IMG/VR virus record: IMGVR_UViG_3300037309_000059
Coordinates: 1-64,000 of that record
Strand: one strand, 5' to 3'
Source of the DNA: a virus
DNA: 64,000 nucleotides
Below, piece after piece: positions 18,926 to 21,660 of this stretch. Made by a program: the position numbers and the translations under genes. Position 1 is the stretch's first letter. Every line of letters begins with the position of its first letter. The notes beneath the pieces were generated by a model. It saw only the letters and a program-made list of their open reading frames with translations, ran no database searches and was not told the DNA's origin.

Positions 18926-18996
18926 GCGGCGATGATGGAGCTGCCGGCTACTTCACCGTGAACTGAGAGATGCCGGTCGCGTTTGTTTCTCGTCGC
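18926..18996 (+). ncRNA. Y-RNA-like module 0 (short, hairpin apex)
   Basis: The terminal helix pairs GCGGCGA with TCGTCGC. The internal loop is TGATGGAG on the 5' side and TCGCGTTTGTTTC on the 3' side. The inner helix pairs CCGGC with GCCGG, and the apex is a TTCA/TGAA hairpin. Confidence 0.6.
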
Positions 18997-19037
18997 AACA
19001 GTTTCGCTCCAGCGTGTGTGGAGATGTGCGCAATCAT

Positions 19038-19177
19038 CTGACGATGATGTAGATCAGGAGTTCTTCATTCAAACCGTGGGTCTCAGGTTCGAGTCCTGAC
19101 TTCCGTGCTTCGGCTCGGTAGTAGCTCAGTTGGTAGAGCAATGGTCCAAAAGAGCCTGATCGTTCGTTTCTCGTCAG
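19038..19177 (+). ncRNA. Y-RNA-like module 1 with permuted tRNA-like domain (YrlA-like)
   Basis: The terminal helix pairs CTGACGA with TCGTCAG. The internal loop is TGATGTA (5') and GTTCGTTTC (3'), and the inner helix pairs GATCAGG with CCTGATC. The apex holds a T-arm (TCAGG-TTCGAGT-CCTGA), an acceptor-like stem closed by UUCG, and a D-arm (GCTC-AGTTGGTA-GAGC). Confidence 0.7.
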
Positions 19178-19186
19178 CCTACAAAT

Positions 19187-19256
19187 GCCGGTGATGTAGA
19201 CCTCGCTTCCTTCGTTTCTGGAACGACCAAAGATGCGAGATCGCTTGTTTCCCGGC
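19187..19256 (+). ncRNA. Y-RNA-like module 2 (short, hairpin apex; YrlB-like)
   Basis: The terminal helix pairs GCCGG with CCGGC. The internal loop is TGATGTAGAC (5') and ATCGCTTGTTTC (3'). The inner helix pairs CTCGC with GCGAG, and the apex is a TCGTT/AACGA hairpin. Confidence 0.65.
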
Positions 19257-19266
19257 TGTCGACATT

Positions 19267-19400
19267 GGCGATGATGTAGAGGGCAGTTCCTTCTCCCTGT
19301 AAGAGAGAGGTTGTTGGTTCGAATCCAACCGGCTCCACCATCTATGGGGCCGTAGCTCAATGGTAGAGCGCTAAAGTCCTGTCTTCGCTTGTTTCTCGCC
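19267..19400 (+). ncRNA. Y-RNA-like module 3 with permuted tRNA-like domain (YrlA-like)
   Basis: The terminal helix pairs GGCGA with TCGCC. The internal loop is TGATGTAGA (5') and TTCGCTTGTTTC (3'), and the inner helix pairs GGCAG with CTGTC. The apex holds an anticodon-like hairpin, a T-arm (GTTGG-TTCGAAT-CCAAC), CGGCTCC-ACCA, and then GGGGCCG-TA with a D-arm (GCTC-AATGGTA-GAGC). Confidence 0.7.
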
Positions 19401-19443
19401 AACCTCGACAGCCCATCGCCGGCCCAACTCGGGAGTGATGGAC

Positions 19444-20154
19444 ATGAAGTTGAACACCAAGGTCGCCGCTCCGGCGATCCGTACCCACGAGGGTGCGCCG
19501 GCTCACCCGGCCAGCCTCGATCCGGTCAACCAGCTCCGCCGGTCGGTGCTCTCGTGCCTCCTATGGGAGTCCGAGTTCTACGAGGACGGCCAGGAGATCG
19601 CGGCCCGGATTGCCGACACCGCCCGCAAGGTGCCCCCGCACGTCGTGGCGGCCCTGGCCCGTGAGGCCCGCGGCCGGTACCACCTGCGGCACGTCCCGCT
19701 CTTGCTCCTCTCGATCCTCGCCGACACCGGCAAGGGCACCACCATGGTGCCGGACGCCATCGGCGACGTGATCCAGCGGGCGGATGAGGTGGCCGAGCTG
19801 CTGGCGGTCCGCGTGAAGGTCACCGGCAAGCCGATCAAGGACTCGATCACCCACGGTATGCGCAAGGGCCTCGCCCGTGCCTTCCGGAAGTTCTCGGCCT
19901 ACCAGCTCGCCAAGTATAACCGGGACGGCGCCTTCAAGCTGCGTGACGCCCTGTTCCTTTCGTTCGCGAAGCCGGACAGCGAGGAGCAGGCCGCGGTCTG
20001 GAAGCAGCTCGTGGACGGCACGCTGCCGGCGCCGGACACCTGGGAGACTCGCCTGTCGGCCTCGGGTCAGACTGGCGTGTCGCGGAAGGAAGCCTGGGAG
20101 GGGGTGATCGACCTTTGGATCAAGGACGATGATGCCAAGCCGTCGACCTCCTGA
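19444..20154 (+). CDS. rsr: Ro60/Rsr orthologue, N-terminal fragment (TROVE domain)
   Basis: TROVE-type sequence is present (RRSVLSCLLWESEFYEDGQ, YHLRHVPLLLL, PDTWETRLSASGQ). GGGAG lies 8 nt before the ATG at 19444. The ORF ends in a short non-homologous tail inside the inserted gene. Confidence 0.75.
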   Translation: MKLNTKVAAPAIRTHEGAPAHPASLDPVNQLRRSVLSCLLWESEFYEDGQEIAARIADTARKVPPHVVAALAREARGRYHLRHVPLLLLSILADTGKGTTMVPDAIGDVIQRADEVAELLAVRVKVTGKPIKDSITHGMRKGLARAFRKFSAYQLAKYNRDGAFKLRDALFLSFAKPDSEEQAAVWKQLVDGTLPAPDTWETRLSASGQTGVSRKEAWEGVIDLWIKDDDAKPSTS

Positions 20155-20968
20155 TATCTCCGAACTCATCGCCCGCTACGCAAGCGGAGTCTCTGCTGCT
20201 GCGCTGGGACGCGAGATCGGGGTATCTGGCGACACCATCCTTGCTTGGTTGCGCAAGGATGGTGTCGCAACCAGGACAAAGTCTGAGGCAGCCCGTCATC
20301 CGGTCAAATCCGCTCTGATTTCAAGGCAGCGGATCGGTCAATCCCCGTGGAATAAGGGTCTCGATAAGAGCGACCCAAGAGTGCTTCGTTACAGTCGCGC
20401 TATCTCGGAAAGGGTAGTGAGCGAAAATACTCGCAGCAAGATTTCTTTGGCGCGGTCAAAAGGCGGCGTCTTCTACGATATCTGCCAGCAGTGCGGGAGG
20501 GAAAAAGGGCACAGCAAGAGAGAGCGATGCGTCTGGTGCGCAGCTAAATGGCGGTCGAAAAACTACCCGAACGCCATGCTGGGGAAAAAGTTGACCGCCA
20601 CGCACAAAATCGCTTTGTCTGCCGCAAATCAGCGTCAAAGCAAAAAGACAAATCCGGAGAAAAAGGTAGAGAAAATTCTCAACTCAATCTTTGGATTGAA
20701 GTGTCCTTTCGTTTATACTGGCTGCGGCGAAAATGCTTTCTGGATAACCATTTCACCACATAGGGTGAGAAGGCCAGATTTCACCGACCGAAATGGTCTT
20801 CGGATTATTGAGGTATTTGGGAGATACTGGCACCCAACCTCAGATGAGGTGAAGGCTATAGACGAGTACCGGAGTGTTGGTTGGAAGTGTCTTGTTGTAT
20901 GGGAGGATGAGATAGAGCAATCCATCAACAGGATTGCCCATTTCTGCAGAGCTACAGAAGGAGTTTGA
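20129..20968 (+). mobile_element. free-standing homing-endonuclease-like gene (HTH, NUMOD3-like repeats and a PD-(D/E)XK/Vsr-like C-terminal domain)
   Basis: The region has visibly lower GC than its flanks. The product has an N-terminal HTH (VSAAALGREIGVSGDTILAWL) and repeated S..TRSKIS / T.THKIALSAAN motifs. Its C-terminus reads RPDFTDRNGLRIIEVFGRYWH ... GWKCLVVWEDE. The gene interrupts the Ro60 coding sequence. Confidence 0.65.
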
Positions 20969-20970
20969 CT

Positions 20971-21660
20971 ATGCAGATCACGAACCACTTTGCGATTTTG
21001 CGGAACCTCCGGAACATCTCGGAGGCGGGAGTCTCGGCCGCGCATATCGCCAAGATCAACGCTGCCCTGCGGCATCCGTCCTGGGCTCATGGCGCCCGGC
21101 GCATCCTGCCGTTCCGCTACGTCGCTGCGGCTCGGGCCGCGCCGATGTTTGAGCCCGCAATCGACGTGGCGATGCAGGCGGCCATCCAGGCGCTGCCGGC
21201 CCTGCCGGGTCGGACCATCGTCCTGGTCGACGTGTCGATCTCGATGGACGCCAAGCTGTCCATCAAGTCCGACCTCCGTCGGGTAGACGCGGCTGCAGCC
21301 CTGGCTGCGATCGTGAACGCAGAAGACCTCCGGGTCTTTTCGTTCAGCAATCATCCGGTCGAGGTGCCGGCGCGTCGGGGTATGGCCGGTGTGGATGCTG
21401 TCATCAAGAGCCAGCACCACAGCGGTACCGACCTCGGCGCGGCCGTGCGGCACGTCAACAAGCTGCCGCACGACCGGCTGATCGTGGTGACGGATGAGCA
21501 GTCGCAGACGCGGGTGCCCGATCCGGTCGCGAAGCGGGCCTACATGGTGAATGTCGCGTCGAACCGGCACGGCATTGGCTATGGTCGGTGGACCCACATC
21601 GACGGGTTCAGCGAGTCGGTCCTTCGGTTCATCGCCGAGGTCGAGCGTGACGTCGGCTGA
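20971..21660 (+). CDS. rsr: Ro60/Rsr orthologue, C-terminal fragment (end of TROVE plus vWA/MIDAS)
   Basis: The product has AILRNLRNISEAGV followed by the vWA motif VLVDVSISM ... VVTDEQS. It has its own GAAGGAG Shine-Dalgarno 7 nt before the ATG at 20971, and it is in the same frame as the N-terminal fragment. Confidence 0.75.
   Translation: MQITNHFAILRNLRNISEAGVSAAHIAKINAALRHPSWAHGARRILPFRYVAAARAAPMFEPAIDVAMQAAIQALPALPGRTIVLVDVSISMDAKLSIKSDLRRVDAAAALAAIVNAEDLRVFSFSNHPVEVPARRGMAGVDAVIKSQHHSGTDLGAAVRHVNKLPHDRLIVVTDEQSQTRVPDPVAKRAYMVNVASNRHGIGYGRWTHIDGFSESVLRFIAEVERDVG

What the first reader, a model, noticed from the sequence alone, without database searches (positions are those of the whole stretch)
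18926..21660. Phage-borne Ro60 / Y-RNA ribonucleoprotein locus
The ORFs 19444..20154 and 20971..21660 together read as a Ro60 (Rsr) orthologue. The TROVE-type sequence includes SVLSCLLWESEFYEDGQ, YHLRHVPLLLL, PDTWETRLSA and AILRNLRNI, and a vWA/MIDAS domain follows (VDVSISM, VVTDEQS). Directly upstream, in the same orientation, lie 475 nt with no credible ORF that fold into four stem modules with Y-RNA architecture. Known bacterial rsr genes are flanked by Y RNA genes (for example YrlA and YrlB), and some Y RNAs contain a tRNA-like domain. Here the whole RNP cassette sits in the accessory operon of a temperate phage. It carries more RNA modules than the one or two I would expect, and its protein gene is interrupted. 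A phage deploying its own Ro/Y-RNA machinery for RNA quality control, tRNA mimicry or counter-defence is poorly explored.
Basis: partly seen in the sequence, partly recalled or inferred. Interest (0 to 1): 0.9.

Follow-up and report, generated by a model that had tools for sequence, protein, structure and literature searches.

The report
Phage Ro60/Y-RNA locus, gene split by endonuclease
A temperate phage carries its own Ro60 RNA-binding ring protein with four Y-RNA genes, a combination already described in phages; the unusual part is that a selfish homing-endonuclease gene cuts the Ro60 gene into two pieces that have stayed intact in at least eight phage lineages.

Summary
ORFs 19444-20154 and 20971-21660 are the collinear N and C parts of one Ro60 protein (TROVE plus vWA/MIDAS). 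Joined, they pass the Pfam TROVE cut-off, match Thermus phage phiLo Ro60 (E=4e-18), and give a confident Ro60-fold model. The 475 nt upstream hold exactly four Y-RNA-like modules. Two carry a permuted tRNA-like domain of the YrlA type. Their closing helix shows strong covariation across 28 modules from seven loci.

Y RNAs next to phage Ro60 genes were reported in 2014 for 22 phages, including CcrColossus, a relative of this locus. A phage Ro60/Y-RNA/PNPase complex was characterised in 2025. Related phages carry 3-8 modules, so four is ordinary.

It is a free-standing homing-endonuclease gene of the Vsr-like family (20129-20968). It is neither an intron nor an intein. It sits at the same codon in eight divergent lineages, and endonuclease-free alleles also exist. 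It lies in a disordered loop, and the downstream half has its own ribosome-binding site. This is a "gene in pieces", a known arrangement with a new target. Function is inferred by analogy only. Interest is moderate.

The parts
18926..18996 (+). Y-RNA-like module M1. Short, with no tRNA-like domain (YrlB-like). Closing helix with 5' core GAUGAUGGAG and 3' strand CGU-UUGUUUCUC.
   Evidence: Motif scans; template fit with 18 of 23 pairs; the minimum-energy fold closes the same helix.
19038..19177 (+). Y-RNA module M2 of the YrlA type. The closing helix encloses a permuted tRNA-like domain: T arm GGUUCGAGUCC, an acceptor-like stem, then D arm UAGCUCAGUUGGUAGAGC.
   Evidence: Rfam YrlA RF02553, 32.3 bits, E=1.5e-4, whole model matched, below the gathering score of 69; fold z=-2.5; template fit.
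19187..19256 (+). Y-RNA-like module M3. Short. 5' core GGUGAUGUAG and 3' strand CGC-UUGUUUCCC.
19266..19402 (+). Y-RNA module M4 of the YrlA type. Contains an anticodon-like stem-loop (loop CCUGUAA, 19296-19302), T arm GGUUCGAAUCC, an 8-bp acceptor-like stem whose 5' strand is followed by ACCA, and D arm UAGCUCAAUGGUAGAGC.
   Evidence: Rfam YrlA 36.4 bits, E=9.8e-6, whole model matched. Sub-threshold tRNA (26.7 bits) and permuted-tmRNA hits fall on the same bases. The minimum-energy fold gives the four-arm structure, z=-2.7.
19444..20154 (+). Ro60 N half (236 aa from ATG 19444). Covers the first part of the TROVE HEAT-repeat ring and ends ...EAWEGVIDLWIKDD plus the 7-aa tail DAKPSTS.
   Evidence: PHROG 850 positions 9-200, E=1.7e-11; collinear with phiLo Ro60 9L5Y/9KOP; alignment to intact homologues.
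20129..20968 (+). Free-standing homing-endonuclease gene (279 aa). Has an N-terminal helix-turn-helix, a NUMOD3-like linker with a Cys4 knuckle, and a C-terminal Vsr-like nuclease (NPE, PDF, IIEVFGRYWH, WEDE). Its ATG overlaps the end of the N half. Its stop lies 2 nt before the C-half ATG.
   Evidence: Low GC. Among 13 aligned sequences (this ORF and 12 homologues), 10 hit NUMOD3, 7 hit Vsr and 4 hit DUF559. The family profile's best PDB hits are I-Bth0305I (3R3P, E=1e-4) and Vsr (about 9e-4). The gene sits at the same position in 7 other loci.
20957..20963 (+). Shine-Dalgarno GAAGGAG, 7 nt upstream of the C-half ATG and embedded in the 3' end of the endonuclease ORF.
   Evidence: Read directly from the sequence.
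20971..21660 (+). Ro60 C half (229 aa). Holds the rest of the TROVE ring, starting MQITNHFAILRNLRNI, and the vWA domain with MIDAS residues DVSIS...T...D.
   Evidence: PHROG 850 positions 210-460, E=4.9e-30; Pfam vWA_Ro60 E=1.3e-4 and TROVE E=5e-3, both sub-threshold on their own; invariant MIDAS columns.

Best explanation
This is the Ro60/Y-RNA ribonucleoprotein cassette of a temperate phage. It has four Y-RNA genes followed by a Ro60 (TROVE plus vWA) gene.

**Shown**
- A free-standing Vsr-like homing-endonuclease gene has fractured the Ro60 gene.
- The fracture lies between ...DLWIxDD and M-x-I-x-NH-x-AILRNLRN.
- The endonuclease ORF fills the whole insert. There is no intron or intein signature.
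- The locus is therefore three overlapping or abutting ORFs: N half, endonuclease, C half.
- The C half has its own ribosome-binding site.

**Inferred**
- The two halves are translated separately and reassemble without a covalent link into the Ro60 ring. The break falls in a disordered surface loop between two HEAT helices.
- Each Y RNA docks on the ring through its conserved closing helix. That helix has a bulged U, a pyrimidine mismatch and a G.U-rich segment.
- The tRNA-like domains of M2 and M4 engage host tRNA- or RNA-handling proteins. By analogy with the Rsr/Y-RNA/PNPase machine of Deinococcus and Salmonella, and with phiLo Ro60, the most likely partner is PNPase.
- The phage would thereby redirect or damp host exoribonucleolytic RNA decay during infection.
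- The endonuclease is a selfish passenger. It spreads by cutting endonuclease-free Ro60 alleles during co-infection.
For: **Ro60 identity**
- The concatenate scores 28.8 bits against Pfam TROVE, above the cut-off of 23.
- It matches phiLo Ro60 (9L5Y/9KOP) at E=4e-18, collinear over residues 15-419.
- It aligns as one piece to 90 phage records at up to 58% identity and to at least 7673 database proteins.
- The AlphaFold model has pLDDT 87.6 and pTM 0.82.
- The top 13 Foldseek PDB hits are all Ro60 or Rsr, E=6e-17 to 5e-12, TM 0.56-0.65. The next hit has E>4e-3.
- The MIDAS residues are invariant.

**Evidence that the split protein is functional**
- The same break point occurs in 8 lineages whose endonucleases are only 34-52% identical.
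- Both halves have intact ORFs. Non-synonymous difference is 0.20-0.43 per site while synonymous sites are saturated at 0.58-0.83.
- The endonuclease has decayed in two lineages while the halves stay whole.
- The break lies in a coil, residues 230-244, with pLDDT below 50 at 237-240.
- A ribosome-binding site and ATG serve the C half. ORF overlaps suggest translational coupling.

**Endonuclease mobility**
- Endonuclease-free alleles carry the same junction signature: P0018 ...DLWVSDDMRISNHMAILRNLRN, and P0021.
- The Ro60 sequence is a mosaic. It is of the split-clade type around the junction (residues 211-300) and of the P0014 type elsewhere.

**Y RNAs**
- Two Rfam YrlA hits cover the whole model.
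- There are four alternating motif pairs.
- Covariation of the closing helix: 87% of cells paired against 62% in shuffles (0 of 500 reach it) and 44-54% when partners are slid. Eighteen of 23 pairs change on both sides.
- The same arrays lie upstream of Ro60 in every relative examined.

**Function by analogy**
- PMC4201824 and PMC12135203.
Against: - There is no expression, binding or assembly data of any kind.
- Neither half alone reaches a Pfam cut-off.
- The YrlA hits are far below Rfam's gathering score, 36 and 32 bits against 69.
- The published 5' motif GNCGAA(N)G reads GAUGUAG or GAUGGAG here.
- The covariation set was assembled by choosing each 3' arm to fit a template best. This inflates the percentage paired.
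- No convincing promoter or terminator was found.
- The structure model is of an artificial fusion. It does not test whether two separate chains associate.
- The PNPase link is pure analogy. In the phiLo study the complex attenuated PNPase rather than specialising it, so even the direction of the effect is open.
Confidence: 0.75

Rival explanations
1. The Ro60 gene is dead. The endonuclease insertion inactivated it, and the halves and Y RNAs are decaying remnants.
For: - Neither half alone passes a curated Pfam cut-off.
- No cultured phage in the phage collection carries this endonuclease, so nothing has been tested experimentally.
Against: - Eight lineages keep both halves full-length.
- Synonymous sites are saturated while non-synonymous change stays low.
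- All TROVE and MIDAS invariant residues are retained.
- A dedicated ribosome-binding site and ATG serve the C half.
- The endonuclease decays in some lineages while the halves do not.
- The break lies in a loop.
Confidence: 0.1
2. The interruption is removed to give a single-chain Ro60. The route would be a self-splicing group I or II intron that carries the endonuclease ORF, or protein trans-splicing by a split intein as in 'fractured genes'.
For: - Vsr-like endonucleases are known inside group I introns (I-Bth0305I in recA) and between split-intein halves (PMC2677866, PMC3239194).
- The N and C halves are in the same reading frame.
Against: - A permissive Rfam scan of 18750-21100 (E up to 10) gives no intron family.
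- The endonuclease ORF fills the whole insert. It starts inside the N-half ORF and ends 2 nt before the C-half ATG, leaving no room for a ribozyme core.
- The extra residues at the break are a short N-half tail and the C half's start Met. A split intein needs roughly 100 aa on the N side and about 35 aa on the C side (general knowledge, not checked here).
- The endonuclease is in a different frame from the halves.
Confidence: 0.03
3. The RNA region is a degenerate or permuted tRNA gene cluster, or tRNA-derived repeats, with no relation to Ro60.
For: - A sub-threshold tRNA hit (26.7 bits) and a permuted-tmRNA hit fall on M4.
- GenBank annotators called the equivalent elements tRNA-Thr, tRNA-Gln and tRNA-Ser in relatives.
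Against: - ARAGORN finds no tRNA in this region.
- Two of the four modules have no tRNA-like part at all, yet share the same closing helix.
- That helix, not the tRNA-like part, is the element conserved with covariation across 28 modules.
- The arrays always lie directly upstream of a TROVE gene on the same strand.
Confidence: 0.04
4. The identity is the same but the job is different. The tRNA-like modules would act as decoys or sensors for host tRNA-targeting defences such as anticodon nucleases. Or they would form an RNA-repair platform with the neighbouring phosphoesterase. PNPase would not be the partner.
For: - An anticodon-like loop with UGU-A-A is shared by the Ro60-proximal module of the window, of Xanthomonas phage 10KY502B and of locus L006.
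- A metallophosphoesterase lies just downstream.
- Cellular rsr often sits in RtcB RNA-repair operons (PMC7790460; jumbo-phage survey PMC7824862).
Against: - No RNA ligase, kinase or RtcB was seen among the ORFs scanned next to the locus.
- The anticodon-like loop varies among other modules (GCU, GUU).
- Nothing here tests this idea directly.
Confidence: 0.2

Closest known systems
Phage Ro60 with Y-like RNAs: Thermus phage phiLo phiRo60 with Yrl1/Yrl2 (PDB 9KOP, 9L5Y; PMC12135203), and the 22 phage loci of Chen et al. 2014 (PMC4201824), including Caulobacter phage CcrColossus
   Same: - A TROVE plus vWA ring protein encoded by a phage, with Y-like RNA genes directly upstream on the same strand.
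- phiLo Ro60 is the best match among solved structures by sequence and by fold.
- The CcrColossus protein is 52% identical. Its upstream region holds the same module type.
   Different: - The gene here is in two pieces.
- phiLo has two Y-like RNAs defined by a CGAA motif. This locus has four, with the core GAUGAUGUAG.
- The host, and any interaction with PNPase, are unknown here.
Bacterial YrlA/YrlB with Rsr (Salmonella, Mycobacterium smegmatis; Rfam RF02553)
   Same: - The 5' and 3' ends form the Ro-binding helix.
- An internal permuted tRNA-like domain runs T arm, acceptor-like stem, D arm.
- Short YrlB-like partners are present alongside.
- The RNAs lie within 4 kb of Ro60 on the same strand.
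   Different: - Scores are about half of Rfam's gathering threshold.
- The GNCGAA(N)G motif is altered at two positions.
- There are four tandem modules rather than two.
- The protein scores 14 bits against the NCBIfam Rsr equivalog, whose cut-off is 900. It belongs to a divergent phage clade.
Genes in pieces made by free-standing homing endonucleases: the intein-less SbcD-like locus split by a Vsr-like endonuclease (Dassa et al. 2009, PMC2677866), and Aeh1 nrdA split by mobE (Friedrich et al. 2007, cited there)
   Same: - A free-standing endonuclease gene lies between two collinear halves of a conserved gene.
- Short extra tails occur at the fracture point.
- Reading frames overlap.
- The arrangement occurs in phage.
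   Different: - The target is an RNA-binding ring protein. The known targets are DNA synthesis or repair enzymes.
- There is no split intein.
- The arrangement is seen here in eight diverged lineages, together with endonuclease-free alleles.
I-Bth0305I / Vsr-like (EDxHD) homing-endonuclease family
   Same: - The conserved PE, PDF, IEVxGxYWH and WEDE motifs are present.
- The family profile's best hits among solved structures are 3R3P and Vsr.
- NUMOD3-type DNA-binding modules are present.
   Different: - I-Bth0305I is encoded in a group I intron in recA. This one is free-standing.
- The window copy alone reaches no Pfam cut-off.

Membership tests
Ro60 / Rsr (TROVE + vWA ring protein) | TROVE HEAT-repeat domain recognised by profile | tested here: met
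   The concatenate scores 28.8 bits against Pfam TROVE, cut-off 23. PHROG 850 matches both halves collinearly. The halves alone are sub-threshold.
Ro60 / Rsr (TROVE + vWA ring protein) | C-terminal vWA domain with MIDAS residues DxSxS...T...D | tested here: met
   DVSIS, GTD and TDEQ are present and invariant in 60 homologues. Pfam vWA_Ro60 scores only 22.4 bits, cut-off 27.7. The fold match covers this domain.
Ro60 / Rsr (TROVE + vWA ring protein) | Overall fold like solved Ro60 structures | tested here: met
   The AlphaFold model has pLDDT 87.6. The top 13 Foldseek hits are all Ro60 or Rsr, E down to 5.6e-17, TM 0.56-0.65. The model is of an artificial fusion of the two halves.
Ro60 / Rsr (TROVE + vWA ring protein) | Single polypeptide chain | tested here: not met
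   Two ORFs are separated by an 840-nt endonuclease gene.
Ro60 / Rsr (TROVE + vWA ring protein) | NCBIfam bacterial Rsr equivalog (NF041674) | tested here: not met
   The N half scores 14.3 bits against a cut-off of 900. It belongs to a divergent phage clade and is not a bacterial Rsr equivalog.
Ro60 / Rsr (TROVE + vWA ring protein) | Binds Y RNA on the outer surface and misfolded RNA in the cavity | not testable with these tools
   Needs co-immunoprecipitation, gel-shift assays or a structure.
YrlA Y RNA (Rfam RF02553; Chen et al. 2014) | Rfam gathering score of 69 bits | tested here: not met
   The scores are 36.4 and 32.3 bits. E=1e-5 and 1.5e-4 in a 2.35-kb search. Nothing was found at gathering threshold in the whole window.
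YrlA Y RNA (Rfam RF02553; Chen et al. 2014) | Helix formed by the 5' and 3' ends, enclosing T arm, acceptor-like stem and D arm | tested here: met
   M2 and M4 match the whole model with all arms. The minimum-energy folds agree.
YrlA Y RNA (Rfam RF02553; Chen et al. 2014) | GNCGAA(N0-1)G motif in the 5' strand | tested here: not met
   The window reads GAUGUAG or GAUGGAG. Relatives read GGCGUAG or GCUGAAG. This is a related but altered motif.
YrlA Y RNA (Rfam RF02553; Chen et al. 2014) | Encoded within 4 kb of Ro60 on the same strand | tested here: met
   The array ends 42 nt upstream of the N-half ATG, on the same strand.
YrlA Y RNA (Rfam RF02553; Chen et al. 2014) | Helices supported by compensatory changes | tested here: met
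   Across 28 modules, 87.1% of cells are paired against 62.2% in shuffles (0 of 500 reach it). Eighteen of 23 pairs change on both sides. Core pair 2 is G-C 20 times and A-U 7 times. Core pair 5 is G-C 20, A-U 4 and C-G 4. Caveat: the 3' arms were picked by fit to a template.
Vsr-like (EDxHD, I-Bth0305I) homing endonucleases | Conserved nuclease motifs and profile similarity to Vsr and I-Bth0305I | tested here: met
   Invariant PE, PDF, IEVFGxYWH and near-invariant W of WEDE. The profile hits 3R3P at E=1e-4 and Vsr at about 9e-4. Seven of the 13 aligned sequences hit Pfam Vsr and 10 hit NUMOD3. The window copy alone is sub-threshold.
Vsr-like (EDxHD, I-Bth0305I) homing endonucleases | Sits at one conserved site of a host gene, with endonuclease-free alleles in the population | tested here: met
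   The site is the same in 8 lineages. The intact alleles P0018 and P0021 have the same flanks.
Vsr-like (EDxHD, I-Bth0305I) homing endonucleases | Cleaves the endonuclease-free allele | not testable with these tools
   Needs an in vitro cleavage assay.
Mobile group I/II intron or (split) intein | Ribozyme core, or intein blocks flanking the endonuclease | tested here: not met
   No intron family appears even at E up to 10. The ORF fills the insert. The extra residues at the break are a short N-half tail and the C half's start Met.

The most novel reading that the evidence does not exclude
The fractured Ro60 is more than a tolerated scar. It would be a two-subunit ring whose assembly is regulated. 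Alongside it, arrays of Y RNAs bearing anticodon-like loops would serve as tRNA decoys. The UGU-A-A loop is shared by the Ro60-proximal module in three distant phages. These decoys would titrate or sense host tRNA-targeting defence nucleases or tRNA-modifying enzymes. The cassette would then be a phage counter-defence system rather than an RNA quality-control machine.
Probability: 0.1. Interest if true: 0.8.

Novelty: new variant of a known kind. Interest (0 to 1): 0.4.

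Why it matters
The core finding, a phage with its own Ro60 and Y RNAs, is already in the literature. By itself it adds one more member.

Three things could be useful.

1. It offers a natural split site in the Ro60 ring, conserved across eight lineages. 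This suggests the ring can be built from two chains. It gives Ro60 structural biologists a ready-made split design.
2. It is a clean case of a Vsr-like homing endonuclease with a non-DNA-metabolism target. Both endonuclease-bearing and endonuclease-free alleles are available, and there is apparent co-conversion of the flanks. This suits study of homing in uncultured phages.
3. Ro60 genes in this phage clade are preceded by arrays of 3-8 Y RNAs. Genome annotators partly mislabel these as tRNAs, which matters for phage tRNA censuses.

None of this resolves what phage Ro60 does.

Tried and rejected
**Searches that found nothing**
- Megablast of 17900-22400 against 50,697 phage records gave no match, so there is no close cultured relative.
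- tblastn of the endonuclease against the same phage records gave no match.
- An IMG/VR scan with the endonuclease profile matched 27 patterns, but none was confirmed.
- Pfam, NCBIfam and PDB searches of the endonuclease alone gave only noise: ribosomal protein L37 zinc knuckle and weak helix-turn-helix hits. The family became clear only from a profile of homologues.
- Each Ro60 half alone against Pfam and NCBIfam was sub-threshold.
- A consensus promoter and terminator scan of 18700-21900 found nothing above chance. TTGACC (18891-18896) with a weak -10 is the only candidate seen by eye.

**Analyses that could not be completed**
- dN/dS on close pairs failed. L006 and L007 are identical in all three ORFs, and the window and L009 are identical. 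Distant pairs have saturated synonymous sites.
- The first automatic pairing of 5' and 3' arms by duplex energy chose wrong partners for several modules. A fixed-template score replaced it.
- MAFFT misplaced two modules with 4-nt bulges. They were dropped.

**Sources not held**
- The supplementary tables of Chen et al. 2014.
- The 2020 Ro60 review.

**Explanations rejected**
- Group I/II intron, split intein and tRNA cluster. See the rival explanations.

Full report

Yes. The six-frame ORF list and the raw sequence show two same-frame ORFs on the + strand. An 840-nt ORF (20129-20968) in another frame separates them. Its GC content falls to 0.44-0.55 against about 0.66 around it.

Upstream, 18926-19402 has no credible ORF. 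Exactly four copies of GRTGATGKAG-N10-CTTC and four copies of CGYTYGTTTCYC occur in the 64-kb window. All lie in this stretch on the + strand, alternating 5'-3'. Shuffled sequence gives 0.00 and 0.13 copies. The patterns were written after seeing the copies.

The window is a phage. It has tail fibres, a tape measure and a primase/helicase. It also has ERF, a DndB-like gene, and a tyrosine integrase beside tRNA-Gly(CCC). 'Temperate' is therefore reasonable.

**2. The protein is Ro60.**

Taken alone, neither half passes a curated Pfam cut-off. Several results nevertheless place the pair firmly in the family.

- The two halves hit the same phage family, PHROG 850 'RNA-binding protein'. The N half matches profile positions 9-200 (E=1.7e-11). 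The C half matches 210-460 (E=4.9e-30).
- Joined, they score 28.8 bits on Pfam TROVE, cut-off 23.
- They match the solved Ro60 of Thermus phage phiLo (9L5Y/9KOP) at E=4e-18 over residues 15-419.
- tblastn finds uninterrupted homologues in 90 phage records, each as one aligned piece. Examples are Xanthomonas phage 10KY502B (58%), CcrColossus (52%), Brevundimonas jumbo phages, Rhizobium phages and crAss001.
- The large protein collection holds at least 7673 relatives at E<=1e-20.
- An AlphaFold model of the concatenate, built with 60 homologues, has pLDDT 87.6 and pTM 0.82.
- Its 13 best PDB fold matches are all Ro60 or Rsr: phiLo, Xenopus, human and Deinococcus. E runs from 5.6e-17 to 5e-12 and TM from 0.56 to 0.65. 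The next match has E>4e-3.
- The MIDAS residues (DVSIS...T...D) are invariant.
- The N half scores far below the NCBIfam Rsr equivalog, 14 bits against 900. This is a divergent phage clade of Ro60.

**3. The RNAs are Y RNAs.**

A permissive Rfam scan gives two matches to the whole YrlA model. One is 19265-19405 (36.4 bits, E=9.8e-6). The other is 19051-19165 (32.3 bits, E=1.5e-4). Both are well below the gathering score of 69. Nothing appears at gathering threshold, and ARAGORN calls no tRNA there.

All four modules share one architecture. In order from the 5' end:

- an outer stem;
- a 10-nt core, G1-N2-U3-G4-N5-Y6-G7-Y8-A9-G10;
- a 7-bp inner stem;
- a conserved nUACUUC-like motif;
- a variable insert;
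- the returning inner stem;
- a CGY bulge;
- a 9-mer of the type UUGUUYCYC, which pairs back to the core, leaving U3 bulged and position 6 mismatched;
- the returning outer stem.

M1 (18926-18996) and M3 (19187-19256) are short. M2 (19038-19177) and M4 (19266-19402) enclose a permuted tRNA-like domain: T arm GGUUCGA(A/G)UCC, an acceptor-like stem, then D arm UAGCUCA..GGUAGAGC. M4 also has an anticodon-like hairpin, and ACCA follows the 3' acceptor strand.

The same modules precede the Ro60 gene in every relative examined.

| Locus | Modules |
|---|---|
| Xanthomonas phage 10KY502B | 5 |
| CcrColossus | about 8 |
| Brevundimonas phage Gurke | about 6 |
| Metagenomic loci | 2-4 each |

I joined the two arms of 28 modules from seven loci and counted pairs for the template structure.

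- 87.1% of cells are paired, against 62.2% in shuffles (0 of 500 reach it).
- Sliding the partners gives 44-54%.
- The covariation score is 0.68 against 0.21.
- Eighteen of 23 pairs change on both sides.
- Core pair 2 is G-C 20 times and A-U 7 times.
- Core pair 5 is G-C 20 times, A-U 4 times and C-G 4 times.
- The window's GAUGA/UCUC version is a double compensatory variant of the common GGUGG/CCCC.

One caveat applies. Each 3' arm was chosen as the best fit to the template, so the percentage paired is somewhat inflated. However, the conserved CGY-UUGUU anchor fixes most arms independently of pairing.

**4. What the interruption is.**

The insert ORF alone gives no curated hit. It has 13 database relatives, one of which is a truncated identical copy from the same phage.

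- In an alignment of this ORF with 12 of them, 10 of the 13 sequences hit NUMOD3, 7 hit Pfam Vsr and 4 hit DUF559.
- The family profile's best matches among solved structures are I-Bth0305I ('mobile intron protein', 3R3P, E=1e-4) and the Vsr mismatch endonuclease (about 9e-4).
- The motifs NPE, PDF, IIEVFGRYWH and WEDE are intact in the window copy.

It is therefore a Vsr-like (EDxHD-type) homing endonuclease with a helix-turn-helix and NUMOD3-type DNA-binding part.

It is not in an intron. No intron family appears even at E<=10. The ORF starts inside the N-half ORF and stops 2 nt before the C-half ATG, leaving no room for a ribozyme.

It is not flanked by a split intein. The extra residues at the break are a short N-half tail and the C half's start Met.

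The C half has a GAAGGAG ribosome-binding site 7 nt before its ATG.

**5. The split is recurrent and old.**

Endonuclease relatives of 34-52% identity each lie between a 219-255-aa ORF and a downstream ORF of about 230-250 aa where complete, with TROVE or vWA_Ro60 hits on most. Eight lineages show this, counting the window.

The break is at the same place in all of them. N halves end ...WExVID(L/I/K/M)W(I/V)xx. C halves start M-x-(V/I)-x-NH-x-AI(L/I)(R/K)N(L/M)RN.

Two intact proteins carry the same junction signature without the endonuclease.

- P0018 reads ...VVDLWVSDDMRISNHMAILRNLRN.
- P0021 reads ...VIDLWILHANAPMKIRNHLAILRNLRN.

These are the empty alleles. They place the insertion between GAC GAY and ATG CRG ATC.

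Between the window and four other lineages, synonymous sites are saturated (0.58-0.83 per site in the halves). Non-synonymous difference is 0.20-0.43, so both halves are under constraint.

In two lineages the endonuclease is truncated, yet the halves are whole.

The window's Ro60 is a mosaic.

| Window residues | Closest relatives | Identity |
|---|---|---|
| 31-180 and 421-468 | Common 'LGYLALLRNLRN' type (P0014) | 63-87% |
| 211-300, around the break | Split clade (P0018) | 61-77%, against 14-57% for P0014 |

This is what co-conversion of flanks during homing would leave. Ordinary recombination is not excluded.

In the model the break (239|240) lies in a coil, residues 230-244, with pLDDT below 50 at 237-240. 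It sits between helices 217-229 and 245-258.

**6. How it most likely works.**

*Shown.* The locus has four Y-RNA-type genes, a Ro60 gene in two separately translatable pieces, and a selfish endonuclease between them.

*Inferred.*
- The halves reassemble into the ring.
- The Y RNAs dock through the conserved helix.
- The tRNA-like domains recruit host factors.

The best-documented partner in bacteria and in the one phage studied is PNPase (PMC4201824, PMC12135203). I take a PNPase-directed RNP as the leading hypothesis. A tRNA-decoy or RNA-repair role is a serious alternative.

**7. Comparison with what is known, and novelty.**

Chen et al. 2014 found YrlA-like RNAs beside Ro60 in 254 bacteria and 22 bacteriophages.

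The 2025 phiLo paper solved a phage Ro60, identified two upstream Y-like RNAs and showed ternary complexes with host PNPase. It cites mycobacteriophages, CcrColossus and Bacillus phage G as earlier cases.

A jumbo-phage survey also notes TROVE proteins with a tRNA-like partner.

Dassa et al. 2009 described the Vsr-like endonuclease family. They described genes it fractures, including an intein-less SbcD-like gene with short tails at the break.

Both halves of this finding therefore belong to known kinds. I could not find a Ro60 gene in pieces in the searchable literature. This library is limited, so that is not proof of absence.

**Verdict.** The fractured Ro60 is a modest new variant.

Noticed in passing
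L001 2292-2359; L002 1631-1698; L003 2269-2343: GenBank features tRNA-Thr (Xanthomonas phage 10KY502B), tRNA-Gln (CcrColossus) and tRNA-Ser (Brevundimonas phage Gurke) start exactly at the Y-RNA core. They cover only the 5' two-thirds of YrlA-like modules. They are probably mis-annotated Y RNAs, not tRNAs.
   Followed up: partly
window 19296-19302; L001 about 2316-2322; L006 about 2342-2348: The Ro60-proximal module carries an anticodon-like hairpin. Its 7-nt loop contains UGU-A-A in three distant phages: CCUGUAA in the window, CUUGUAA in the other two. Other modules show GCU or GUU. This could mean mimicry of a particular tRNA.
   Followed up: no
window 18805-18850: A strong inverted repeat (GGCCCCATGGTG...CACCATGGGGCC) lies right after the stop of ORF 17996-18796. 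It has no U tract. It surfaced as a spurious 'F6' sRNA hit on both strands. It could be a terminator or a processing or binding site ahead of the Y-RNA array.
   Followed up: no
window 17996-18796: The gene just upstream of the array belongs to PHROG 7371, function unknown, E=1e-45. It begins ...LLLDETGSM, which looks like a second vWA/MIDAS protein next to Ro60. Pfam finds nothing.
   Followed up: no
window 21835-22392: A calcineurin-like metallophosphoesterase lies directly downstream of the Ro60 C half (Pfam Metallophos_2 E=2e-9; PHROG 547 E=1e-52). A Metallophos gene also lies near the split Ro60 in L006. It may be a functional partner, for example in RNA end healing.
   Followed up: no
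L006 2410-2430 vs L007 about 320-342: Two metagenomic contigs are identical across the 2-kb N-half/endonuclease/C-half region. They differ at 7 clustered positions in the 3' (Ro-binding) strand of one Y module.
   Followed up: partly
L021 2785-5912: An eighth split-Ro60 lineage lies on a low-GC contig binned to a Candidatus Parcubacteria MAG. Directly after the C half comes an ORF whose N-terminus reads like a GIY-YIG endonuclease (judged by eye). If so, a second mobile endonuclease sits in the same locus.
   Followed up: no
window 20328-26509: This stretch is 100% identical to JGI metagenome contig Ga0484858_006363 (L009). The phage has therefore been sampled independently, and the endonuclease/C-half junction is not an assembly artefact.
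   Followed up: yes
window 24302-25480; 26590-27813; 28040-28113: A DndB-like gene (Pfam E=3e-7) is present. A tyrosine integrase with an Arm DNA-binding domain lies on the minus strand beside tRNA-Gly(CCC), which probably marks the attachment site.
   Followed up: no
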